Source: Candidatus Hydrogenedentota bacterium
Lineage (GTDB): Bacteria; Hydrogenedentota; Hydrogenedentia; Hydrogenedentales; CAITNO01
Reading direction: 5' to 3'
Assembly (NCBI GenBank): GCA_012730105.1
Contig: JAAYBJ010000284.1
Coordinates: 7,872-71,871 of the forward strand
DNA length: 64,000 nt
In this document: positions 13,325 through 58,735 of the stretch, piece by piece
Position numbering within the stretch: position 1 is the stretch's first letter
Layout: every line of letters begins with the position of its first letter
Position numbers and translations under genes: made by a program
The notes under the pieces: model-generated
What the model was told of the DNA's origin: nothing
Seen by the model: the letters and a program-made list of their open reading frames with translations, nothing else
Database searches by the model: none

Positions 13325-13629
13325 GTGATCTCGTGCTTATGGGTAACTACCAATAGCATTGGGATGCTTCGCCTCTCGACAGGCGTTGCCATGCTTCTAC
13401 TCTCAAGAAATAAACAGACATCCTGATAAGGGCGATTTCCTCATATGAAGAACATGATGATACAAAATTAGGCAGGACAATTTCATTATCTGTGAAAAGG
13501 GACTTCATTCCCTTGCGTTTGACACACTCTACAGACACGATGAAATTTCGTTGGAGGCATTCATCAGGACTATTCCTCCCGGTAGGATTTGATACCATCT
13601 CCGAACGAATGCTAGAATTCAGCGACCGG

Positions 13630-13840
13630 TTCTCAGGGCGATAGTCGCTCTGACGCTAAGAGGGAATCCGGTGAGAATCCGGAACTGCCCCGCAGCGGTA
13701 AACAGGAACGAACGGCGCGATCGTGGTGTCTTTTCAACACGGTAAACGCACTGGTCCCATTGGATGGGGCTGGGAAGCGGCGTCAAGTAGGAACAGCCTC
13801 CAGGGAATATGCCTGTAAGTCCGAAGACCTGCCGGAAAAA
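13630..13840 (+). promoter_or_regulatory. Cobalamin (AdoCbl) riboswitch
   Basis: Matches the conserved core …AGAGGGAATCCGGTGAGAATCCGGAACTGCCCCGCAGCGGTAAACAGG…, then …GCACTGGTCCC…GGGAAGCGGCG…, then the B12-box …GTAAGTCCGAAGACCTGCCGG. Lies ~120 nt upstream of the CDS at 13958. Confidence 0.85.
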
Positions 13841-13957
13841 GTAATGCGACGCTATTCTAATTCTGAAAGCCATGTTCGAGGTGGAATATCGCAGAGTCAA
13901 TTTCCCCCTAGCATGCCTTGACGACTTGAATGGCCCGCAAGAAACGAGGGTTTCATC

Positions 13958-15346
13958 ATGAATCAAAATGCACCAGTTCCCCACCCGACCTCCTTTTCAT
14001 CCCTTGTCGTAAGACACAGTCTGTTATTGATTGTTGTCTTTCACCTTGCATTGTCAGCGGTTGCACAAGGGCCGTCTTCTTTAAACCAAGCCCTGATTAA
14101 GCCTTATTACATGTTTCCGGTGTCTTTGGAATCAGCGCTGGTCAGTTTTGACTGGGACGCCTCGGGGGCACTCCACTATACCGTGGGTGACCCAAATTAC
14201 GGGTTAAAATTGGAAGTATATAAGCTTTCACAAGACACCCCAATTCTGGTTTATGAAACCGCAAGCGCTTGGGTCGGCTCATTGCTGACTTGTATCGGAG
14301 ATTACATTTACTTTAATGACGGCGGGGATTACTTGCGGGGAGACTTTAATTACTATTTCTACAACGCATCAAACCCGGAAACCGTGGTGCCTCTGCTAAT
14401 AGCACCTTACGGCGCCAGCCTCTGGGGTGTTACCGGCCGCGGTACGGATGAACTTTTTGCTTCCGGTTCCACGGCAACCTGGGGACCGGCATCGTTATTT
14501 TACAGTCCCCTGGACAGTTCGGGCATGCTGGAATCCACGCCTCCGGTGGTATTCGGTGAGATTGGCGATTCCCCTGGCCCCATGGCCTTTGATCCCTCCG
14601 GTAATCTGTACTATGTGCCGGGCTATGCCTACAGCGGCACGGCAACGATTTACCGTTGGAACGTCCAGGAGGTGGATGCCGCTTTGACAGGCGGGTCCGG
14701 TATGGGTCTTCAGCCCGCCGGACACGACTGGGCGACATTACCCGCGCCCTACGACGGTGCGACAGGCATGATTGCCGACCCCTATGGGAACATTTATGTT
14801 ACGGCAACATCCTGGGGCGCGCCCAGCCAACTGCTGGCATTCAGGGAAGACAACGCAATGGTGACACCCGCCGCGGAATATGTTGGAAGACTGGAAACAT
14901 TACGTTACCGGGATAACGCCATCTACATGAGTTGCGCGAACGGTATTTTTCGTATGCCGTTACTCACCGTGGAATTCTCCCTTGAAGACACGGATGTACT
15001 GGCCACAGTGGGGGAGACCGCGGTCTTTGCGATTAACGCAACAGGCGGCATAGGCAACCGAAGCTATCACTGGTACCGAATGGACGATCAGAATACGAGA
15101 GTACTCGTGGGAACCGACCTGTCCCACTATTCCATGACCGCCCAAAGTGAAGACTCGGGAACCGTCTATTTCTGCCTGGTCAAGGATGATGTGTATTCGA
15201 TTGAATCGCCCCATTTCAGCCTGACGGTTCAAGACCCGGTACCCTTGGCAGCCCCCGTAATATTGTTGTCCGGCGCGATCATACTTGCCGTGGCGGGCAG
15301 TATCGTGCTTATTAAACGCCGTTCCCCGGCAGAAGATATTGCCTGA
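13958..15346 (+). CDS. Secreted beta-propeller + Ig-like domain protein with C-terminal exosortase-type sorting anchor (VPLPA/PEP-CTERM-like)
   Basis: 462 aa. Signal peptide. About 6 repeated blade motifs (GDPNYG…, GDYIYFNDGGDY, SGNLYYVPGYAY, YGNIYVTATSW, NAIYMSCANGIF). Ig-like domain (…DSGTVYFCLV…). C-terminus VPLAAPVILLSGAIILAVAGSIVLIKRRS. Preceded by the B12 riboswitch. Confidence 0.7.
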   Translation: MNQNAPVPHPTSFSSLVVRHSLLLIVVFHLALSAVAQGPSSLNQALIKPYYMFPVSLESALVSFDWDASGALHYTVGDPNYGLKLEVYKLSQDTPILVYETASAWVGSLLTCIGDYIYFNDGGDYLRGDFNYYFYNASNPETVVPLLIAPYGASLWGVTGRGTDELFASGSTATWGPASLFYSPLDSSGMLESTPPVVFGEIGDSPGPMAFDPSGNLYYVPGYAYSGTATIYRWNVQEVDAALTGGSGMGLQPAGHDWATLPAPYDGATGMIADPYGNIYVTATSWGAPSQLLAFREDNAMVTPAAEYVGRLETLRYRDNAIYMSCANGIFRMPLLTVEFSLEDTDVLATVGETAVFAINATGGIGNRSYHWYRMDDQNTRVLVGTDLSHYSMTAQSEDSGTVYFCLVKDDVYSIESPHFSLTVQDPVPLAAPVILLSGAIILAVAGSIVLIKRRSPAEDIA

Positions 15347-15431: not shown

Positions 15432-15508
<77 letters not shown>

Positions 15509-16838: not shown

Positions 16839-19241
16839 TTAGTTACGCAGCGGCTTGCCGCTGGCAAGCATGTTCTGAATCCGCGCCTGAGTTTTTTCGG
16901 TACCGCAAAGGCTTACGAAAGCCTCGCACTCGAGATCAAGGAAATCCTGCTCGGTCATGGGGGTGCCTGCGGCACGATCGCCACCGCACAGGATATTCGC
17001 AATATGACTGCTGATCAGCATATCATGCTCGCTCGCCCAACCGGCTTCTTTCATGCCCCAGACACCGGCTGCAAAAACAGCCTTAGCGCTTTCACCCAGG
17101 GCGTACAGGCGCGGCTTGCGCGGCGGGGCATAACCCGCCACCACCATGCCGCGGCATACCGCCTTGGCCTTCTGAATCTGGTGGTCATAGTTAGGCAGCA
17201 CGATGTCGCTGGCACGGAAATAGCCCAGTTCGATCACTTCGGCGCCGCTGGTGCCGACTTTCGCGGTCGCAATGTTTTCAAAAGCCCGGCGCACAAAGGG
17301 GAAGGCGTCATTGGGCTGGATGTTCTCTGGCATATACTCCAGAGCGCGCACCAGCAGTTCCGTGGTGCCGCCGCCCGCAGGAATCACACCCACACCCACT
17401 TCAACAAGTCCTGCGTAGGTTTCACCGGCCAGAACGACTTTGTCCGCGTGTTGGCAGATTTCCACACCGCCGCCGAAGGTATAATGATGCGGCGCCGCAA
17501 CGACGGGCGCACTGCAGTATTTCATGCGCATGCCGATACCTTGCAGGCCGCGCACCATGTCTTCGAGGCCTTTCCAATTCTCCTGCATGGCGTCACCCAG
17601 AACAAGCATCAGGTTCGCGCCCGCGCAGAAATGGGGCCCCTGGTTGCCAATAACCATGCCCTCAAATTTGCCTTCTTCCAGCAGGTCAACACCCTTGTTA
17701 AGTACGGCGACAATATCGGGGCCGATGGCATTCATCTTGCAGTGGAATTCAGCGCAAATGATCCCGTCTCCAAGATCCACCAGGCTGGCTTCATCCATTT
17801 TCTCCACGATGTTTGTGGGATTGGCCTTGACATTGATTAGTTTCAATTCGTTCGGATTGGTGGGCACCGGTTTGTAGGTCTTCGTCGCGAGGTCGAAGAA
17901 CAGGTCCACGCCTTTTTCGGACTTGTAAAACGACTTGCCGCCAGCCTCCTTGACCGCCTGTGCGATGGGCGGCAAGGCGATGCCTTCGGCAGCCATCCGT
18001 TCACAGACTTCGTCAAAGCCGAGGATGTCCCAGGTCTCGAAAATGCCGACTTCCCAGGCAAATCCCCACTTGCAGGCATTATCCAGATTCACGATATCAT
18101 CCGTGATTTCAGGAATACGGTTGCCCGCGTATTGGGCCATGTTCGCGAAAAACTTGAAGAGGAACTTGGAACCTTCGTCATCTCCGAAATGCATGACCTT
18201 CAGTTTTTCAGCGAGGCTGCCCGCGCTGCGCGCCGCGCCCGTGCAGGCAAACCGAGGCTTGACAGGAGCGCGATAGTCCACCGTCGCCGGGTCAAAGCCA
18301 AGAATAACCTTCTTGCCTTTTTCATCCCGTTCCTTGGTGGCCTTGTAAAATCCGGAACCAGACTTGTTCCCGAAATAGCCCTTTTCGATCATCTTGTCGA
18401 ACCAGTCCGGGCCTTTCATCATGTCACGGCGTTCATCATCCGGGCAGCCGTTATACACGTTGCCGACCACTTTCTGAAGGGTGTCCAGCCCCACAAGGTC
18501 GGCCGTCCTGAAGGTCGCCGAACTCGCATGGCCGATGGCGGGTCCGGTCAGGGCGTCGATTTCCTCCACACCCAGGCCGGCTTTTGTCATTTCATGCATC
18601 AGGTATTGCATGGCAAAGGTGATGATACGGTTGGCTACAAAGTTGGGCGTGTCCTTGGCATAGACGATACCCTTGCCGAGCACGTTTTCACCAAAAGCGC
18701 CCACTTCCTTTACCACTTCGGGTTTCGTCTTAGCCGTGGGAATTACTTCAAGAAGTTTGAGGTAACGCGGGGGATTGAAGAAATGGGTGCCCAGGAAATG
18801 CTGGGCCATTTCATCGGGCATATCTTCAGCCATCGCGGAGATGAGAATACCGCTGGTATTGGAACTGACAATGCTACCCGGCTTCCTGTACTTTGCCACT
18901 TGCGCGAAAATCTTTTTCTTGATGTCAAGTTTTTCAATGACCACTTCGATGATCATATCGCAATCCGAGATTTTCTCCATGTCGTCCTCGAAATTGCCGA
19001 TCTCGATCATGTCGATATACGACTTGACATACAAGGGCGCCGGCTTGGCCTTTAACAAGGCCGCTTTGGCGCCGGCCGCGATTGCATCGCGCTTTGCCTT
19101 GTTCTTTTTGTCCTCATCGGACAGATTCGGGGGCACGATATCCAGCATGACACTTGGAATACCGCAGTTGGCCAGGTGCGCGGCGATGGCCGCACCCATG
19201 ACGCCCGAACCCAATACTGCGACACGTTTAATTTCCCTCAT
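16839..19241 (-). CDS. fadN: Multifunctional 3-hydroxyacyl-CoA dehydrogenase / enoyl-CoA hydratase (FadN/FadJ-like)
   Basis: 800 aa. N-terminal NAD-binding GSGVMGAAIA of 3-hydroxyacyl-CoA dehydrogenase, C-terminal crotonase-fold region. RBS AAGGAG 10 nt upstream. Confidence 0.85.
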   Translation of the reverse strand: MREIKRVAVLGSGVMGAAIAAHLANCGIPSVMLDIVPPNLSDEDKKNKAKRDAIAAGAKAALLKAKPAPLYVKSYIDMIEIGNFEDDMEKISDCDMIIEVVIEKLDIKKKIFAQVAKYRKPGSIVSSNTSGILISAMAEDMPDEMAQHFLGTHFFNPPRYLKLLEVIPTAKTKPEVVKEVGAFGENVLGKGIVYAKDTPNFVANRIITFAMQYLMHEMTKAGLGVEEIDALTGPAIGHASSATFRTADLVGLDTLQKVVGNVYNGCPDDERRDMMKGPDWFDKMIEKGYFGNKSGSGFYKATKERDEKGKKVILGFDPATVDYRAPVKPRFACTGAARSAGSLAEKLKVMHFGDDEGSKFLFKFFANMAQYAGNRIPEITDDIVNLDNACKWGFAWEVGIFETWDILGFDEVCERMAAEGIALPPIAQAVKEAGGKSFYKSEKGVDLFFDLATKTYKPVPTNPNELKLINVKANPTNIVEKMDEASLVDLGDGIICAEFHCKMNAIGPDIVAVLNKGVDLLEEGKFEGMVIGNQGPHFCAGANLMLVLGDAMQENWKGLEDMVRGLQGIGMRMKYCSAPVVAAPHHYTFGGGVEICQHADKVVLAGETYAGLVEVGVGVIPAGGGTTELLVRALEYMPENIQPNDAFPFVRRAFENIATAKVGTSGAEVIELGYFRASDIVLPNYDHQIQKAKAVCRGMVVAGYAPPRKPRLYALGESAKAVFAAGVWGMKEAGWASEHDMLISSHIANILCGGDRAAGTPMTEQDFLDLECEAFVSLCGTEKTQARIQNMLASGKPLRN

Positions 19242-19294
19242 CGCATCATTTCTCCTTATTGATTGACTCGCAACTTGGGCCTTACCATTGTATA

Positions 19295-19310
19295 CTTAAC
19301 GGTCGTTAAG
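19295..19310. promoter_or_regulatory. Perfect 7-2-7 inverted repeat CTTAACG-GT-CGTTAAG in the fadN promoter region (candidate operator)
   Basis: Seen directly. Lies ~55 bp upstream of the fadN start, overlapping promoter-like hexamers. Confidence 0.35.
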
Positions 19311-34790: not shown

Positions 34791-36215
34791 CTATGAACGT
34801 ATCATCTTGGTGAGTTGATCGATTCTCTGGCGTGCCGCCCGATCGTTTTCCGCATGGTGAGACATTTTGTCACAGGCATACAGCACAGTCGTATGGTCCC
34901 GCCCGCCAAAGTGTTCGCCCACATCGCTCAGGGACAGCCCCGGGACCAGGGTCTTGCAGAGATACATCGCCAGTTGCCGCGGGTAGACCACCTGTTGTTT
35001 GCGGCTTTTCCCGCGCAAATCCGCAATACGCACGTCAAAGTGTTCCGCCACGGCGCGTTGTATCTGTTCCACGGTAATGGGCCTGATCTTTTCGCTGCCG
35101 ATAAGATCCCGCAACACATTTTCCACCATGGCCAGCGTAATCTTTTGCTCGGTCAATTTACTGTACGCGTATACGGTAATCAACGCGCCTTCGAGTTCCC
35201 TGATATTCGTGGTGATATAGGTTGCGATATACCGCAGCACCTCTGAGGGAACATTGATATTGTCCATCTTCGCCTTGTTTTGCAAAATGGCGATGCGCGT
35301 CTCCAAATCCGGAGGCTGGATATCCGTGACGAGTCCCCACTCGAACCGCGACACCAAACGCTGTTCAATACCCTCGATCTCCTTGGGACTGCGGTCACTG
35401 GAGATCACAATCTGTTTGTGTGCGTCAAACAGCGCATTAAAGGTGTGAAAGAACTCTTCCTGCGTCGCCTCCTTGCCGGAGATGAAATGTATATCATCGA
35501 TAAGGAGCATATCCACGCGTCTGTATTTCGCACGGAAACGCTGGGTGTCCTTTTCGGCGATGCTCTGGATCAGCTCATTCGTAAACGCTTCGGAAGAAAG
35601 GAAAACGACCTTGGAACTCGGATCCGCCGCAAGCAACCATTGGCCCACGGCCTGCATCAAATGGGTTTTCCCCAGCCCGGTGCCCCCGTATAAAAACAGG
35701 GGATTATACGCGCGTCCAGGGGATTGGACAACCGCTTTCGCGGCCGCGTGCGCGAAGCGGTTCCCGTTGCCGATCACAAAGCGATCAAACGTGTACTTCG
35801 GGTTAAACCCCGGATAACTCTGTTTTGTTCTGCCCGCGTGTTGTCGAGACGGAGTAGACGAAACCGACGGAACTGATCTACTGTTTTTTTTCTCAGAAGC
35901 GGGGGAACCGGACTCGGCATAGGGCATATACTTGACGGTTTTGAGCGCGGGCTCTTCACGCCTCAACGCTTCCAGTACGGCTTCCTGATAGTGGTCTTCA
36001 AGCCAATTCGCAAAAAAAGTGCTGGGCACACGGACCGTAATCACCCCTTCGTGATACCCATCATACGATGTTTGCAGGAACCAGTTTTTGTAGCTGTATT
36101 CATCAAGTGTATCGCGTAAATGTATTTGTGCCCGATCCCAGAGATTATCATGTATTCCATTAACTTTTGCATTTCCAGTCTGCATCAGTTCATTCATGAA
36201 TAAACCACCCTTCAT
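34791..36215 (-). CDS. dnaA: Chromosomal replication initiator protein DnaA
   Basis: 474 aa. AAA+ Walker A GGTGLGKTHL, sensor motifs, C-terminal DNA-binding domain (…RDHTTVLYACDKM…). Confidence 0.95.
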   Translation of the reverse strand: MKGGLFMNELMQTGNAKVNGIHDNLWDRAQIHLRDTLDEYSYKNWFLQTSYDGYHEGVITVRVPSTFFANWLEDHYQEAVLEALRREEPALKTVKYMPYAESGSPASEKKNSRSVPSVSSTPSRQHAGRTKQSYPGFNPKYTFDRFVIGNGNRFAHAAAKAVVQSPGRAYNPLFLYGGTGLGKTHLMQAVGQWLLAADPSSKVVFLSSEAFTNELIQSIAEKDTQRFRAKYRRVDMLLIDDIHFISGKEATQEEFFHTFNALFDAHKQIVISSDRSPKEIEGIEQRLVSRFEWGLVTDIQPPDLETRIAILQNKAKMDNINVPSEVLRYIATYITTNIRELEGALITVYAYSKLTEQKITLAMVENVLRDLIGSEKIRPITVEQIQRAVAEHFDVRIADLRGKSRKQQVVYPRQLAMYLCKTLVPGLSLSDVGEHFGGRDHTTVLYACDKMSHHAENDRAARQRIDQLTKMIRS

Positions 36216-43188: not shown

Positions 43189-43256
43189 CTCGCTGAAGCA
43201 TACATCCTTAGCTGCGGGAAAAGAAAGCCAAATTTCCCGGCCGGTGTCGTTATGAT

Positions 43257-45713
43257 TCAGATAAAGAGATTCATATCCGCCTGCTCAGCGCGTCCCAGGT
43301 AGGCGCCCACACCACCGATTTCAATACCGTCGATGAGTTCTTCTTTTTTGATGCCCATAACATCCATGCTCATGGAACATACAACCAGCCGTATGCCGGC
43401 GGCACGGGCGGCCGCGACCAGTTCCTCGGGAGCCATTACATTCTTGGTTTTCATGACATACCGCATCATCATGGAACCTACCCCGGCCATGTTCATTTTT
43501 GAAAGGCGCAACTTGCCGGGGCCTTTGGGCATCATCATACCGAACATCCGGTCAAGCAGTCCCTTGGACACCCGCGGCGGCTGCGCCTTGCGCAACACGT
43601 TGATTCCCCAAAAGGTGAAAAAGATGGTTACATCACTGTCCATGGCGGCCGCTCCGTTCGCAATGACAAAGGTCGCCATGACGCGATCCAGGTCGTCGCT
43701 GAAGCAGACAATGGTTTTTGATTTCCTGCCGGTTGGAGGGACTGCCGGAACAAGCCCTTGAGGAGCGGGGACTGTCGCTGCCAATCCCCGGCGTATGCGC
43801 GCGACATAACGGCCACCATCAGGTCTCGCTTCAAGCAGGGTATTTCCAGTGCTTGTGCACCAAGCGGGAATATCCGCGATGAATCCCACATCCGTGGCCG
43901 TCACCTCCAGAACATCTCCGGCGTTCATTCTGCTCATGCTTTGTTTTACCCTGGAAAGAGGACCGGGACACTGCAGGCCGCACACGTCCAGCTTTTGCGT
44001 CGTTACGGCGCCCTCCGGCGGCGATGCCTCAGGTGCCGAGGCAGAAGGTTCACGCTTGGAGTTGTCCACGCAAGCAGTTCCTGCGCCACCGGTGCCCCCG
44101 CCATTAAACCAGGACCAGGTACGATAGCCGCCATTCAGGTTGACCACATCAAATCCGGCCTGCTTCAACTGGCGGTAAGCGATATAGCCTCGCAGCCCTA
44201 CCGCGCAATACACGCCAATCTTGCGGTCTCGGGGCAGTTCGGCGTGCCGCTTGCGCAATTCCTCGAGTGGAATAATAGTCGCCCCGGAAATAACACCACA
44301 CTCCGTCTCATCCGGCATACGCACATCCAGCCAGAAAATATCCCGCTCAGCATCGTCCGCCTCTACTGTCAACGCGTCGCCTTTAATCATGTTGTGCGCG
44401 GTAAAACCAAGCATGTTGATGCCGCTTTTCGCGGAATTATACTGTGGTGAATAAGCCAGTTCCAGGTGTTCCAGCGCCTCGGCGTTCATCTTCTGGCTTA
44501 CGGCCACAGCCAAGACATCAATAGCATCATTGACGCCTTCCGGCCCGACAACCTGAGCCCCGAGCAGGAGCCCTTCAGGACTGAACAAGCCCTTTAAGGA
44601 AACGGGAACCGCCCCTGGATAGTATTTGGCGTGCTGCATGGGATGGATGTAGACACGAAAATAAGGTCGTCCTGCCTTCTTGAGGCGTTTTTCACTCCAC
44701 CCGGTACATGCAGCGACCTGGTTAAACACCTTAACAATGGAGGTGCCCAGAACTCCCGGATACGAAGCGGGCCTCCCACAAATGTTATCCGCCGCAATTC
44801 TCGCCTGCCGATTGACCGGCCCAGCCAGCGGCACAGCAGCGTCCTCTCCCGTGATAAGATCCCTGACCTGTACGGCGTCACCCACCGCATAGATATTCGC
44901 ATCGCTGGTCCGCATCCGATCATTTACCCTGATATGGCCACGTGGGCCGAGTTCAAGTCCGGCCTCGCGGGCAAGTTCAGAGCGGGGGGCCACCCCGGCG
45001 CACAGGCAAACCATATCCGCAGATATGCTGGATCCGTCATTCAAGGCCACCAGTTTTTCGTCGATGGAGACAACAGACGCATTCAGGCGCACTTCAACCC
45101 CGTTGAGTTGCAGTTCCTGGAGAAGGGTGGAAGTCATCTCCCGGTCCAAGGGGGGCAAGACTTGATCCAACATTTCGACCAGAGCAACTTTCACGCCGCG
45201 TTTTCGGAGGTTTTCGGCCAGTTCAAGGCCGATAAATCCGGCGCCGATGACACAGGCTTTCTCGACAGCATCCACCTTGTCTTTAAGGCGATCCATATCG
45301 TTTAGACTGTTCAGGGTGTACACGGCAGGCCCGTTAATACCCGGGATATCGGGGCGTATCGGCGCAGCGCCCGGTGCAAGCACCAGTACGTCATAGGATT
45401 GACGAGATGTTTGGCCGTCTTTTAGGTTGATGACTTCTACCATTTTATTCGCGATATCAATACGCCGCACTTCATGGCCCGTCCGAATATCTAGCCCATA
45501 TCGCGCGCGCAGGGTCTCCGCGCTTTGCACGATCATATTGGCACGATCTTCAATAACACCGCCCACATAGTAGGGCATACCACAGTTCGCAAAGGAAACC
45601 GCCTCGCCCTTTTCATAAACAATCACTTCCAAGGATTCATCAAGCCGCTTGATGCGCGCCGCACAGCTCATGCCGCCCGCCACACCGCCCACAATCACAA
45701 TCGTCTTAGCCAT
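43257..45713 (-). CDS. Four-domain CoA-disulfide/persulfide reductase fusion: CoADR (FAD/NAD) – rhodanese – TusA – DsrE-like
   Basis: 818 aa. CoADR active-site SFANCGMPYY and GxGxxG. Rhodanese Cys loop VYCAVGLRG. TusA CPGP motif (LQCPGPLSRV). C-terminal DsrE/DsrF-like domain. RBS AAGGAGAA. Confidence 0.85.
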   Translation of the reverse strand: MAKTIVIVGGVAGGMSCAARIKRLDESLEVIVYEKGEAVSFANCGMPYYVGGVIEDRANMIVQSAETLRARYGLDIRTGHEVRRIDIANKMVEVINLKDGQTSRQSYDVLVLAPGAAPIRPDIPGINGPAVYTLNSLNDMDRLKDKVDAVEKACVIGAGFIGLELAENLRKRGVKVALVEMLDQVLPPLDREMTSTLLQELQLNGVEVRLNASVVSIDEKLVALNDGSSISADMVCLCAGVAPRSELAREAGLELGPRGHIRVNDRMRTSDANIYAVGDAVQVRDLITGEDAAVPLAGPVNRQARIAADNICGRPASYPGVLGTSIVKVFNQVAACTGWSEKRLKKAGRPYFRVYIHPMQHAKYYPGAVPVSLKGLFSPEGLLLGAQVVGPEGVNDAIDVLAVAVSQKMNAEALEHLELAYSPQYNSAKSGINMLGFTAHNMIKGDALTVEADDAERDIFWLDVRMPDETECGVISGATIIPLEELRKRHAELPRDRKIGVYCAVGLRGYIAYRQLKQAGFDVVNLNGGYRTWSWFNGGGTGGAGTACVDNSKREPSASAPEASPPEGAVTTQKLDVCGLQCPGPLSRVKQSMSRMNAGDVLEVTATDVGFIADIPAWCTSTGNTLLEARPDGGRYVARIRRGLAATVPAPQGLVPAVPPTGRKSKTIVCFSDDLDRVMATFVIANGAAAMDSDVTIFFTFWGINVLRKAQPPRVSKGLLDRMFGMMMPKGPGKLRLSKMNMAGVGSMMMRYVMKTKNVMAPEELVAAARAAGIRLVVCSMSMDVMGIKKEELIDGIEIGGVGAYLGRAEQADMNLFI

Positions 45714-45764
45714 ACCGTTCTCCTTGTTTTTATTTACATTTGATCTTTGTTTTCACTGTGGTTG

Positions 45765-46040
45765 TTATCCAAAACGCCCGAAAGCCTCCAAAACTTCCTT
45801 GAGCACCCGCTTTCTATCCTCCTCATTATCCATGCCCTCTTCAAGACAGCAGTCCATGTGCTGGGTGACAATAATTTTGGCCACAGCGCGGATCGCCGCG
45901 TCCGTGGCGGCGAGTTGCCGCAACACATCGGTGCACTTACGCCCGTTCTCGACCATTTTCTTAATACCCCGCACCTGGCCTTCAACTTTTCCAAGCCGCA
46001 AGAGCACGTTATCTTTTGTAACTTCCATGTCTTTTGTCAT
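45765..46040 (-). CDS. CsoR/RcnR/CstR-family (DUF156) metal/persulfide-sensing transcriptional repressor
   Basis: 92 aa from the internal Met. Conserved …RLGKVEGQVRGIKKMVENGRKC…H…C… helix pattern with Cys/His sensing residues. The ORF track starts 44 codons upstream at 46172. Confidence 0.75.
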   Translation of the reverse strand: MTKDMEVTKDNVLLRLGKVEGQVRGIKKMVENGRKCTDVLRQLAATDAAIRAVAKIIVTQHMDCCLEEGMDNEEDRKRVLKEVLEAFGRFG

Positions 46041-46059
46041 GCTATTTTCCAATGCGTTG

Positions 46060-46082
46060 TTATACCCATACCCGGTATGAAT
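46060..46082. promoter_or_regulatory. Candidate CsoR-type operator: pseudo-palindrome ATACC-CATACCC-GGTAT
   Basis: Seen ~20 bp upstream of the csoR-like start. Resembles the GC-rich-core ATACC…GGTAT operators of the CsoR/CstR family. Confidence 0.5.
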
Positions 46083-46252
46083 ATACACCACCGCACCCCA
46101 GATTTGCAATACTATTTTTTGGCCCTTTTTTCTGTCAAACAGCCGTTCTGAAAATTTTTGTTTTATATACAATATACTGTGGCCGAGAAAAAAAATTCCT
46201 CAAAATATAGGGTTTTCAGGTTGCTTTAAAATCAAATTTTTGATATACTTAA

Positions 46253-51397: not shown

Positions 51398-51472
51398 TGG
51401 CGCCCCGAACAGGAATCGAACCTGTGTTTAGCGCTTAGGAGGCGCTCGTTCTATCCACTGAACTATCGGGGC
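51398..51472 (-). tRNA. tRNA-Arg (CCT)
   Basis: Cloverleaf folded by hand on the minus strand: acceptor GCCCCGA/TCGGGGC, D-arm GTTC…GAAC, anticodon stem AGCGC/GCGCT with loop CTCCTAA, T-arm ACAGG-TTCGATT-CCTGT, CCA encoded. Confidence 0.85.
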
Positions 51473-58657: not shown

Positions 58658-58735
58658 GTCCCCATCGTCTAGCCTGGCCTAGGACACCGCCCTTTCACGG
58701 CGGCGACAGGGGTTCAAATCCCCTTGGGGACGCCA
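58658..58735 (+). tRNA. tRNA-Glu (TTC)
   Basis: Near-identical in architecture to canonical bacterial tRNA-Glu (GTCCCCATCGTCTAG…CCCTTTCACGG…GGTTCAAATCCCC…GGGGACGCCA). Followed by a T8 run. Confidence 0.9.

What the first reader, a model, noticed from the sequence alone, without database searches (positions are those of the whole stretch)
43257..46082. CstR-like persulfide-sensing module: CsoR-family repressor, ATACC-N7-GGTAT operator and a four-domain CoADR-rhodanese-TusA-DsrE fusion, divergent from gyrB
A 92-aa CsoR/CstR-family repressor (45765..46040) is followed in the same operon by an 818-aa single polypeptide. That polypeptide combines a CoA-disulfide reductase (SFANCGMPYY), a rhodanese (CAVGLRG), a TusA (CPGP) and a DsrE-like domain.

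In Staphylococcus and Enterococcus these activities are spread over the cst operon or CoAPR and detoxify sulfide, persulfide and CoA-persulfide under CstR control. Here they are fused into one enzyme.

The pseudo-palindrome ATACCCATACCCGGTAT lies ~20 bp upstream of the repressor gene and matches the architecture of CsoR-family operators. The divergent placement directly upstream of gyrB-gyrA is unusual.
Basis: partly seen in the sequence, partly recalled or inferred. Interest (0 to 1): 0.6.

Follow-up and report, generated by a model that had tools for sequence, protein, structure and literature searches.

The report
CsoR-type repressor with persulfide-reductase fusion operon
A small self-regulated two-gene operon in a Hydrogenedentes genome pairs a CsoR-family repressor with a common four-domain sulfur-handling enzyme; it most likely detects and removes reactive sulfur, and only the repressor's copper-like sensor site is unusual.

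Summary
45765..46040(-) encodes a 91-aa (not 92) PF02583 repressor. 43257..45713(-) encodes an 818-aa CoADR–rhodanese–TusA–DrsE_2 protein, confirmed by HMMs and an AlphaFold model with disordered linkers.

The palindrome at 46062..46078 is a real operator. It sits 1 nt downstream of a -10 box, and this block is the only conserved stretch in seven orthologous promoters.

- The fusion is not special. It occurs in at least 598 species genomes across many phyla and was described in Bacteroides fragilis (BF638R_0572, repressed by MarR-type BmoR).
- The repressor keeps the copper-type C36-H61-C65 ligands and Glu82, so it fails the x-C-x-C fingerprint of known CstRs. It also lacks the Tyr35 of copper sensors.
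- TACC-N7-GGTA operators are generic to the CsoR family, and the gyrB adjacency is lineage-specific.

Context favours sulfur. The repressor–fusion pair travels as a unit through different flanks. No fusion-linked homologue has Tyr35. Of 68 Y-C-H-C homologues, 35 sit beside copper-ATPase or HMA-motif ORFs and none beside sulfur genes. In other phyla an ArsR- or MarR-type repressor takes the same position.

Verdict: a probable persulfide-responsive operon with a variant sensor site. Modest interest.

The parts
46104..46109 (-). -35 hexamer TTGCAA of the operon promoter
   Evidence: The promoter scan finds TTGCAA-18 nt-TATATT at 46109..46080(-). By my reading of the upstream sequences and alignment, a TTGnnn hexamer lies 17-18 nt upstream of TATAyT in all seven orthologous promoters.
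46080..46085 (-). -10 hexamer TATATT
   Evidence: Orthologues have TATACT. The TATA and final T columns are invariant in alignment A4.
46062..46078 (.). Operator. Read on the gene strand it is ATACCGGGTATGGGTAT, i.e. ATACCS-N5-GGGTAT. It starts 1 nt after the -10 hexamer and so covers the likely transcription start.
   Evidence: Orthologous sites are ATACCCCGTATGGGTAT (L081), ATACCCGGTAGGGGTAT (L173), ATACCCGGTACGGGTAT (L174), ATACCCGGTATGGGTAT (L175) and ATACATAGTATATGTAT (L087). The core has the same architecture as the validated S. mitis cst operator ATACCCTTATGGGGTAT (PMC8643695).
45765..46040 (-). CsoR-family repressor gene, 91 aa. Sensor residues are Cys36 (45933-45935), His61 (45858-45860) and Cys65 (45846-45848). 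Lys35 replaces the Tyr of copper sensors. Glu82 is kept.
   Evidence: PF02583 at E=2.5e-23. Residue alignment to GtCsoR, SpCstR and InrS. Clade conservation. ATG 46040 is the start used in orthologues. The 135-aa TTG extension would run through the promoter and operator.
45714..45764 (-). 51-nt spacer between the two genes, with the Shine-Dalgarno AAGGAG at 45720-45725. No promoter or terminator was predicted in it.
   Evidence: Sequence read; scan.
43257..45713 (-). Gene for the 818-aa four-domain fusion enzyme
44397..45704 (-). CoA-disulfide-reductase-like FAD/NAD(P)H domain (residues 4-439). Active-site Cys44 lies in SFANCG (45582-45584).
   Evidence: Pyr_redox_2 and Pyr_redox_dim. TIGR03385 scores 451 bits, below the equivalog cut-off of 578.8. 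Cys44 is invariant in 78 homologues.
44112..44342 (-). Rhodanese domain (residues 458-534), catalytic Cys503 (44205-44207)
   Evidence: PF00581. Aligned to the Npsr rhodanese domain. Cys503 is invariant.
44013..44096 (-). Disordered Gly/Pro/Ser/Ala-rich linker (residues 540-567)
   Evidence: pLDDT below 50 in the AlphaFold model. The columns are variable and gapped in A2.
43788..43994 (-). TusA domain (residues 574-642), Cys582 in CPGP (43968-43970)
   Evidence: PF01206 at E=1e-19. Cys582 is conserved in at least 90% of 78 homologues.
43734..43769 (-). Second disordered linker (residues 649-660)
   Evidence: pLDDT below 50.
43263..43724 (-). DsrE2-like DrsE_2 domain (residues 664-817), conserved Cys779 (43377-43379)
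   Evidence: PF13686 at E=3.5e-57. PDB 3PNX at E=1.7e-28. Cys779 is invariant.
43226..43242 (-). Weak terminator-like hairpin followed by a T-run, 15 nt after the fusion stop codon. Possible end of the operon.
   Evidence: The scan found no more such sites than expected in shuffles (5 found, 3.8 expected), so this is tentative. Read-through into menF-menD cannot be excluded.

Best explanation
This is an autoregulated bicistronic operon for clearing reactive sulfur species.

Regulation. A sigma-70-type promoter (TTGCAA-18-TATATT) is followed 1 nt later by a CsoR-family operator, ATACCS-N5-GGGTAT. In the reduced state the 91-aa repressor, a tetramer by family analogy, binds this site and blocks transcription of its own gene and of the downstream enzyme gene. 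Sulfane sulfur (organic or inorganic per- or polysulfide) attacks the Cys36/Cys65' pair. Di-, tri- or tetrasulfide bridges form between subunits, the repressor leaves the DNA and the operon is derepressed.

Enzyme. The induced 818-aa enzyme is a CoAPR/Npsr-type NAD(P)H- and FAD-dependent persulfide reductase (Cys44 plus rhodanese Cys503). It is extended through two flexible linkers by a TusA domain (Cys582) and a DsrE2-like domain (Cys779). These probably collect sulfane sulfur and relay it to the rhodanese and CoA site, where it is reduced to H2S.

Shown here: gene structure, domain structure, conserved cysteines, the promoter/operator footprint, conserved pairing of the two genes, and absence of a copper context.

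Inferred: the inducer, the crosslink chemistry, the direction of sulfur flow and the substrate.
For: - Domains and solved relatives. The closest relatives (Npsr, BaCoADR-RHD, EfCoAPR) are persulfide or CoA-persulfide reductases.
- One invariant or near-invariant Cys per domain in 78 homologues.
- Four folded modules separated by disordered linkers.
- The repressor+fusion pair is kept in relatives whose fusion is 78, 74, 73, 71, 60 and 54% identical, and the flanks change completely in the last two. The pair was found again starting from the repressor side, in L093.
- A phylogenetic footprint of the -10 box plus operator.
- Signature/context test:
  - 68 CsoR homologues have Tyr35-C-H-C. Of these, 35 lie within 4 kb of an ORF with P1B-ATPase or HMA sequence motifs and none near sulfur domains.
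  - Every fusion-linked homologue lacks Tyr35 (Lys, Ala, Pro, Gly, Asp or Ser).
  - One orthologue has Tyr at the His position (L173/P0124), and the Paenibacillus one has the classical CstR Asn.
- Tyr35 and Glu81 are needed for Cu(I) allostery in copper sensors (PMC8643695).
- No ORF with P1B-ATPase or HMA sequence motifs in the 64-kb window, and only one operator match in it.
- In Planctomycetota and Phycisphaerales an ArsR/SmtB-family regulator sits in the same position. Among small ORFs within 500 bp of the fusion in the 80 species loci kept from the scan, 20 match the ArsR-family HTH_5 model and 2 match PF02583. In B. fragilis a MarR-type repressor controls the same enzyme. Interchangeable small repressors on one effector fit stress-inducible detoxification.
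- Precedent: CstR represses the CoAPR gene in E. faecalis (PMC9405070).
Against: - His61 and Glu82, part of the Cu(I) site and its second shell, are retained in nearly all clade members. The three characterised persulfide-sensing clusters are x-C-x-C.
- The best solved match is a copper CsoR (4M1P, 54.7 bits), only marginally above SpCstR (51.2 bits).
- The operator type is shared with copper CsoRs.
- No experiment exists on this clade or on the four-domain enzyme's substrate.
- In B. fragilis the enzyme was linked to thiol/disulfide balance under oxygen, not to sulfide.
- Only 64 kb of the genome was seen, so a copper efflux target elsewhere cannot be excluded.
Confidence: 0.6

Rival explanations
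1. The repressor is an ordinary Cu(I)-sensing CsoR. Copper binds Cys36-His61-Cys65 and releases the repressor. The fusion enzyme is a copper-stress accessory, for example repairing thiols or handling sulfide under copper stress.
For: - The x-C-H-C ligand set and Glu82 are present.
- The top solved hit is a Cu-CsoR.
- The best, though sub-threshold, NCBIfam hit is RicR.
- The operator is of the type found upstream of copper csoR genes.
Against: - Tyr35 is nearly invariant in bona fide copper sensors and energetically linked to Cu(I)-driven allostery (PMC8643695). It is absent in every fusion-linked member.
- His61 is Tyr in a 75%-identical orthologue.
- No ORF with copper-ATPase or HMA motifs is in the window or, bar one unchecked motif match in L174, within 4 kb of any clade member. 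By contrast 35 of 68 Y-C-H-C homologues have one.
- The conserved partner is a sulfur-relay enzyme.
Confidence: 0.12
2. The repressor is a general thiol-oxidation or electrophile sensor (disulfide stress, oxidants). The enzyme acts mainly as a CoA-disulfide or low-molecular-weight-disulfide reductase that keeps thiol/disulfide balance, as proposed for B. fragilis BF638R_0572.
For: - BF638R_0572 is derepressed 50-fold in a bmoR mutant and is tied to thiol/disulfide balance during oxygen exposure.
- The CoADR domain is strongly similar to TIGR03385 (451 bits).
- A dithiol sensor can in principle be oxidised by many agents. Tetrathionate also releases CstR.
- Thioredoxin or glutaredoxin genes lie next to the fusion in a few species.
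Against: - Three of the four domains (rhodanese, TusA, DsrE2-like) are sulfane-sulfur carriers, each with a conserved Cys.
- The TIGR03385 score is below the equivalog cut-off.
- The closest characterised enzymes reduce persulfides rather than disulfides.
Confidence: 0.2
3. The two genes are only neighbours. The repressor regulates itself or a distant target, and the fusion gene is expressed independently.
For: - 51 nt separate the genes.
- Most other phyla have the fusion without a CsoR neighbour: only 2 of the 80 species loci kept have one.
- One relative with a 61%-identical fusion has no adjacent regulator.
Against: - Same strand, a short gap (15-53 nt in the orthologues), and a strong Shine-Dalgarno but no promoter or terminator predicted in the spacer.
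- The pair is conserved through rearranged flanks in at least 7 lineages.
- The conserved promoter/operator lies only upstream of the repressor gene.
Confidence: 0.05

Closest known systems
Enterococcus faecalis / Streptococcus mitis cst-like operon (CstR with CoAPR and the rhodaneses RhdA and RhdB)
   Same: - A CsoR-family dithiol repressor controls a CoADR-rhodanese persulfide reductase.
- The operator core is ATACCC-N5-GGGTAT.
- The enzyme's first 535 residues align to EfCoAPR 8A56 at E=1.9e-131.
   Different: - CstR has Asn or another residue at the Y position (x-C-x-C). Here His61 is kept.
- The separate rhodaneses are absent here. Instead TusA and DsrE2-like domains are fused to the reductase.
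Bacteroides fragilis BF638R_0572 (four-domain pyridine nucleotide-disulfide oxidoreductase) with BmoR
   Same: - Same four domains in the same order at nearly the same coordinates: CoADR 14-440, Rhodanese 462-540, TusA 589-657, DrsE_2 671-825.
- It is also held off by an adjacent small repressor.
- Bacteroidota homologues are about 44% identical over the full length.
   Different: - The regulator there is MarR-type, not CsoR-type.
- It was studied in oxidative-stress terms. Its substrate is unknown.
Shewanella loihica Npsr and Bacillus anthracis CoADR-RHD
   Same: Best solved-structure matches (526 and 493 bits). They cover the reductase and rhodanese domains and both catalytic cysteines.
   Different: They end after the rhodanese domain, with no TusA or DsrE tail.
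Staphylococcus aureus CstA (rhodanese-TusA-DsrE-like sulfurtransferase) under CstR
   Same: - The order rhodanese, TusA, DsrE-like matches residues about 452-818 here.
- CstA is also under a CsoR-family repressor (PMC9918477).
   Different: - CstA has no flavoprotein reductase domain.
- It works in an oxidative SQR/CstB pathway.
- It was not compared directly by sequence here.
Cu(I)-sensing CsoR (Geobacillus 4M1P, M. tuberculosis 2HH7, B. subtilis)
   Same: PF02583 fold, C-H-C ligands, Glu81 equivalent, and a TACC-N7-GGTA operator.
   Different: Tyr35 is replaced by Lys. There is no copA/copZ neighbour; the partner is a sulfur enzyme.

Membership tests
CsoR/RcnR superfamily (PF02583) | Match to the family HMM above the gathering score | tested here: met
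   82.7 bits against a cut-off of 22.8
CstR (persulfide sensors, SSN clusters 3/4/10 of Fakhoury 2021) | Two conserved Cys at the X and Z positions | tested here: met
   Cys36 and Cys65 are invariant in the clade
CstR (persulfide sensors, SSN clusters 3/4/10 of Fakhoury 2021) | Loss of the Cu-ligating His at the Y position (x-C-x-C) | tested here: not met
   His61 aligns with the CsoR His, where SpCstR has Asn. His is kept in all but one clade member, P0124/L173, which has Tyr.
CstR (persulfide sensors, SSN clusters 3/4/10 of Fakhoury 2021) | Genomic neighbourhood of sulfide/persulfide detoxification genes | tested here: met
   Co-oriented CoADR-rhodanese-TusA-DrsE_2 gene 51 nt downstream. The pairing is conserved in at least 7 lineages.
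CstR (persulfide sensors, SSN clusters 3/4/10 of Fakhoury 2021) | cst-type operator in the promoter | tested here: met
   ATACCS-N5-GGGTAT is conserved and matches the S. mitis core. It does not discriminate, because copper csoR loci have the same type.
CstR (persulfide sensors, SSN clusters 3/4/10 of Fakhoury 2021) | Release from DNA by persulfide through intersubunit Cys-Sn-Cys bridges; insensitive to Cu(I) | not testable with these tools
   Needs anisotropy or EMSA plus mass spectrometry
Cu(I)-sensing CsoR | C-H-C first-shell ligands | tested here: met
   Cys36, His61, Cys65
Cu(I)-sensing CsoR | Second-shell Tyr35 (allosteric network) | tested here: not met
   Lys35 here. The position is never Tyr in fusion-linked members, but is Tyr in the 68 Y-C-H-C homologues.
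Cu(I)-sensing CsoR | Second-shell Glu81 | tested here: met
   Glu82 is conserved in at least 90% of the 17 aligned homologues and invariant in the close clade
Cu(I)-sensing CsoR | copA/copZ in the immediate neighbourhood | tested here: not met
   No DKTGT or HMA motif ORF in the 64-kb window. One fusion-linked locus (L174) gave an unchecked HMA-motif match in a neighbouring ORF; no other did.
Ni/Co sensors RcnR / InrS | N-terminal His at the W position (H-C-H-H or H-C-H-C) | tested here: not met
   No His in residues 1-60. NCBIfam RcnR scores 37.7 bits against a cut-off of 138.
FrmR (formaldehyde sensor) | N-terminal Pro2 with Cys (P-C-H-x) | tested here: not met
   The N-terminus is MTKD. NCBIfam FrmR scores 31 bits against a cut-off of 133.
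CoADR-RHD / Npsr / CoAPR persulfide reductases | Class I pyridine-nucleotide-disulfide oxidoreductase with a single redox Cys in SFxNCG | tested here: met
   Cys44 in SFANCG is invariant in 78 homologues
CoADR-RHD / Npsr / CoAPR persulfide reductases | C-terminal rhodanese domain with a catalytic Cys | tested here: met
   PF00581. Cys503 aligns with the Npsr rhodanese loop and is invariant.
CoADR-RHD / Npsr / CoAPR persulfide reductases | Bound CoA and NAD(P)H-dependent reduction of CoASSH or polysulfide | not testable with these tools
   Enzyme assay required
CoA-disulfide reductase proper (TIGR03385 equivalog) | Score above the curated equivalog cut-off | tested here: not met
   451.2 bits against a cut-off of 578.8
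Four-domain CoADR-Rhodanese-TusA-DrsE_2 proteins (BF638R_0572 type) | The same four domains in the same order in one polypeptide of about 810-830 aa | tested here: met
   One search compared with Table 3 of PMC6158253. All 120 listed homologues share the Pfam set. At least 598 genomic relatives.
DsrE2 sulfur carrier (NF047629 equivalog) | Score above the curated cut-off | tested here: not met
   79 bits against a cut-off of 210. It is a DrsE_2-family domain, not the DsrE2 equivalog.

The most novel reading that the evidence does not exclude
The Hydrogenedentes repressors (K/P/A/G-C-H-C-E, without Tyr35) may be a further, independently evolved lineage of CsoR-family reactive-sulfur sensors that still carries the complete Cu(I) first shell. 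That would make them either an evolutionary intermediate between CsoR and CstR or a sensor responding to both Cu(I) and persulfide. It would also show that loss of Tyr35, not loss of His, is the first step in retuning the family from copper to sulfur.
Probability: 0.3. Interest if true: 0.55.

Novelty: new variant of a known kind. Interest (0 to 1): 0.35.

Why it matters
The question of what makes one CsoR-family dithiol site sense copper and another sense persulfide is open; Fakhoury et al. 2021 address exactly this.

A natural clade that keeps C-H-C and Glu81, has lost Tyr35, and is wired to a sulfur-relay reductase offers a ready test case. Suggested variants are K35Y and H61N.

The comparison also shows that one widespread but biochemically uncharacterised four-domain enzyme is placed under CsoR-, ArsR- or MarR-type repressors in different phyla. 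This marks it as a general stress-inducible sulfur or thiol detoxification module worth characterising.

For genome annotation, 'metal-sensitive transcriptional regulator' is probably misleading for this gene.

Tried and rejected
- Literature search for CoADR + rhodanese + TusA + DsrE found nothing. Rewording found the B. fragilis paper.
- The metagenome scan seeded with the repressor clade returned mostly generic copper CsoRs and only one close relative, L093. I reused that set as an unbiased control.
- NCBIfam gave no above-threshold name for either protein or for the ArsR-type neighbours. BigR similarity is only 42-63 bits against a cut-off of 155, so I do not call them BigR/SqrR.
- PDB 6AHX, a D-C-H-C 'putative cytosolic protein' and the second-best structural hit, could not be identified in the literature.
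- A greedy ORF filter discarded true regulators in favour of longer antisense ORFs. I therefore scanned all 228 candidate neighbour ORFs.
- Regulation of gyrB by the repressor: rejected. By my reading of the intergenic sequences, gyrB has its own conserved TTGCTT-17-TATACT promoter more than 100 bp from the operator, and only one operator exists.
- The second 818-aa ORF in the window (16839..19295) as a possible paralogue: rejected. It is a FadB-like 3-hydroxyacyl-CoA dehydrogenase/enoyl-CoA hydratase.
- The 135-aa TTG-start version of the repressor (as called in P0121): rejected, because it would contain the promoter and operator.


Full report
**Observation**

The window comes from a Candidatus Hydrogenedentes metagenome-assembled genome; the fusion protein is 100% identical to P0001, named as such by NCBI.

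- ORF 43257..45713(-) follows 51 nt downstream on the same strand, preceded by an AAGGAG Shine-Dalgarno. It encodes 818 aa with Pyr_redox_2 (4-282), Pyr_redox_dim (327-426), Rhodanese (458-534), TusA (574-642) and DrsE_2 (664-817), all above Pfam cut-offs.
- An AlphaFold2 model built on 78 homologues has mean pLDDT 87.2. It shows four folded modules separated by disordered linkers at residues 540-567 and 649-660. The domain boundaries are therefore supported twice.
- Cys44 (SFANCG), Cys503 (rhodanese) and Cys779 (DrsE_2) are invariant in the 78 sequences. Cys582 (TusA CPGP) is conserved in at least 90%.

**The enzyme**

- Residues 1-535 align best to solved Shewanella Npsr (3NTA, E=1.2e-156), B. 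anthracis CoADR-RHD (3ICR) and E. faecalis CoA-persulfide reductase (8A56). The C-terminal domain matches the putative sulfurtransferase 3PNX.
- It does not reach the equivalog cut-offs for CoA-disulfide reductase or DsrE2.
- In CoAPR, persulfide passes from the rhodanese Cys via the swinging pantetheine arm of CoA to the flavin-proximal Cys and is released as H2S (PMC9405070).
- In S. aureus CstA, rhodanese, TusA and DsrE homologues are fused and pass sulfane sulfur from rhodanese to TusA (PMC9918477).
- The protein here is in effect a CoAPR/Npsr core carrying a CstA-like tail on flexible tethers. A cysteine relay Cys779 / Cys582 -> Cys503 -> CoA -> Cys44/FAD is the simplest reading. The direction of flow and the substrate are inferred.

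**The fusion is not unusual**

- All 120 listed database homologues (49-100% identity) share the same Pfam set and are named by their sources as Hydrogenedentes, Planctomycetota, Phycisphaerales or Bacillota.
These include Clostridium, Paenibacillus, Phocaeicola/Prevotella, Treponema, Actinomycetota and Gallionella.
- The identical architecture was published for B. fragilis BF638R_0572. That gene is derepressed 50-fold when the adjacent MarR-type repressor BmoR is deleted (PMC6158253).

**The repressor**

- Aligned with solved family members, Cys36, His61 and Cys65 coincide with the Cu(I) ligands of Geobacillus CsoR. SpCstR (7MQ1) has Asn at the His position.
- Glu82 corresponds to the second-shell Glu81. 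Position 35, Tyr in copper sensors, is Lys.
- Fakhoury et al. 2021 define the three persulfide-sensing clusters as x-C-x-C. They define copper sensors as x-C-H-C with nearly invariant Tyr35 and Glu81 that couple Cu(I) binding to DNA release.
- The protein therefore fits neither fingerprint. There is no N-terminal His (RcnR/InrS) or Pro2 (FrmR), and no NCBIfam model reaches its threshold.
- In the close clade Cys36 and Cys65 are invariant, position 35 is never Tyr, the extra Cys64 is not conserved, and one 75%-identical orthologue has Tyr in place of His61.

**Context test**

I collected CsoR-family genes from two sources: loci fetched through the fusion, and 80 metagenome loci fetched through the repressor.

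For each I read positions 35/36/61/65/82 and scanned 4 kb either side for copper motifs (P1B-ATPase DKTGT+CPx, HMA) and for the four sulfur domains.

| Group | n | Copper-motif neighbour | Sulfur-domain neighbour |
|---|---|---|---|
| Tyr35-C-H-C homologues | 68 | 35 | 0 |
| Fusion-linked homologues (all lack Tyr35: Lys/Ala/Pro/Gly/Asp/Ser) | 16 loci | 1 (unchecked HMA-motif match in L174) | all |

- The fusion-linked group includes L093, which was found from the repressor side.
- A few Tyr-less homologues in the control set do sit near metal ATPases (for example L101). Tyr loss alone is therefore suggestive, not diagnostic.
- The 64-kb window holds no ORF with copper-ATPase or HMA motifs and no second CsoR gene.

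**Synteny**

- The repressor-fusion pair is kept in relatives whose fusion is 78, 74, 73 and 71% identical. All four are divergent from gyrB. Three of them have menF-menD downstream, as in the window; the 73% relative (L081) instead has a protein-kinase gene on the opposite strand.
- The pair is also kept in relatives at 60% and 54% identity whose flanks are entirely different. The pair is the conserved unit, and the gyrB adjacency is a lineage-specific accident.
- One relative with a 61%-identical fusion has no adjacent regulator.
- In a Planctomycetota and a Phycisphaerales genome an ArsR/SmtB-family gene occupies the same upstream position.
- Among small ORFs within 500 bp of the fusion in the 80 species loci kept, 20 match the ArsR-family HTH_5 model, a few are MarR-like and only 2 match PF02583. 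The two are a Paenibacillus with the classical D-C-N-C signature and a Fusibacter.
- One effector under interchangeable small repressors is the pattern expected of an inducible detoxification gene.

**Promoter and operator**

- The palindrome alone is not significant in the window.
- In seven orthologous upstream regions the only conserved block is TATAyT-n-ATACCCGGTATGGGTAT. By my reading of these sequences, a TTGnnn hexamer lies 17-18 nt upstream of the TATAyT.
- The promoter scan independently reports TTGCAA-18-TATATT at 46109..46080(-).
- The operator, best written ATACCS-N5-GGGTAT, begins 1 nt after the -10 hexamer and so covers the start-site region, a classic repressor position.
- Its core equals that of the validated S. 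mitis cst operator (ATACCCTTATGGGGTAT).
- TACC-N5-11-GGTA, almost always N7, also lies upstream of 50 of 79 mostly copper-type csoR genes. The operator proves CsoR-family autoregulation, not the identity of the inducer.
- Only one site exists in the window. gyrB appears to have its own conserved promoter more than 100 bp away (my reading), so gyrB is unlikely to be a target.
- A weak hairpin with a T-run follows the fusion stop codon. Read-through into menF-menD is not excluded.

**Conclusion**

- Most likely (about 0.6): an autoregulated, reactive-sulfur-inducible operon that works like cstR-coaP. Its effector is a member of a widespread, already described but biochemically uncharacterised four-domain family. 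Its sensor is a variant that keeps the copper His but lacks Tyr35.
- Rivals: a general thiol-oxidation response (about 0.2), a true copper sensor (about 0.12), and mere adjacency (about 0.05).
- Membership in 'CstR' as currently defined fails on the His criterion. Functional analogy to CstR rests on context and remains to be tested.

Noticed in passing
L088:4587-4898 and L089:4631-4942; also about 20 of the 80 loci L001-L080: In Planctomycetota, Phycisphaerales and many Bacillota the same four-domain enzyme gene is preceded by an ArsR/SmtB-family regulator instead of a CsoR-type one. In B. fragilis the regulator is a MarR-type. Repressor families are swapped on one effector.
   Followed up: partly
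L173:2673-2948 (protein P0124): The 75%-identical orthologue of the repressor has Tyr in place of the copper-ligand His61 (TQYMDCC). The His is therefore dispensable in at least one close relative.
   Followed up: partly
window 46140-46250: The gyrB-repressor intergenic region holds further conserved blocks shared with L081 and L173, for example CCTATATTTTGAKGAA and a TATATTGT element. It also holds a conserved TTGCTT-17-TATACT that is probably the gyrB promoter. The function of the extra blocks is unknown.
   Followed up: no
window 13610-13850 (+): Cobalamin riboswitch (RF00174, 88 bits) upstream of ORF 13922..15346(+). That ORF has only a faint beta-propeller repeat hit.
   Followed up: no
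window 34791-36215 (-): dnaA lies about 10 kb from gyrB-gyrA, so the locus is near the probable replication origin. It is not in the classical dnaA-dnaN-recF-gyrB order.
   Followed up: no
window 16839-19295 (-): A second ORF of exactly 818 codons is a FadB-like 3-hydroxyacyl-CoA dehydrogenase/enoyl-CoA hydratase. It is unrelated to the fusion, and the equal length is coincidence.
   Followed up: yes
window 15432-15508, 51398-51472, 58658-58735: tRNA-Asp(GTC), tRNA-Arg(CCT) and tRNA-Glu(TTC).
   Followed up: no
L093:3400-3470: In this 60%-identical repressor locus, which is also followed by the fusion, the half-sites TATACCC and GGGGTATA are separated by about 11-12 nt rather than 5, with a TATAAG between them. 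This is a different operator geometry.
   Followed up: no
L084:8537-8824: In the relative with a 60%-identical fusion, an acyl-CoA-binding protein (ACBP) gene directly follows the fusion gene. This fits a CoA-centred function.
   Followed up: no
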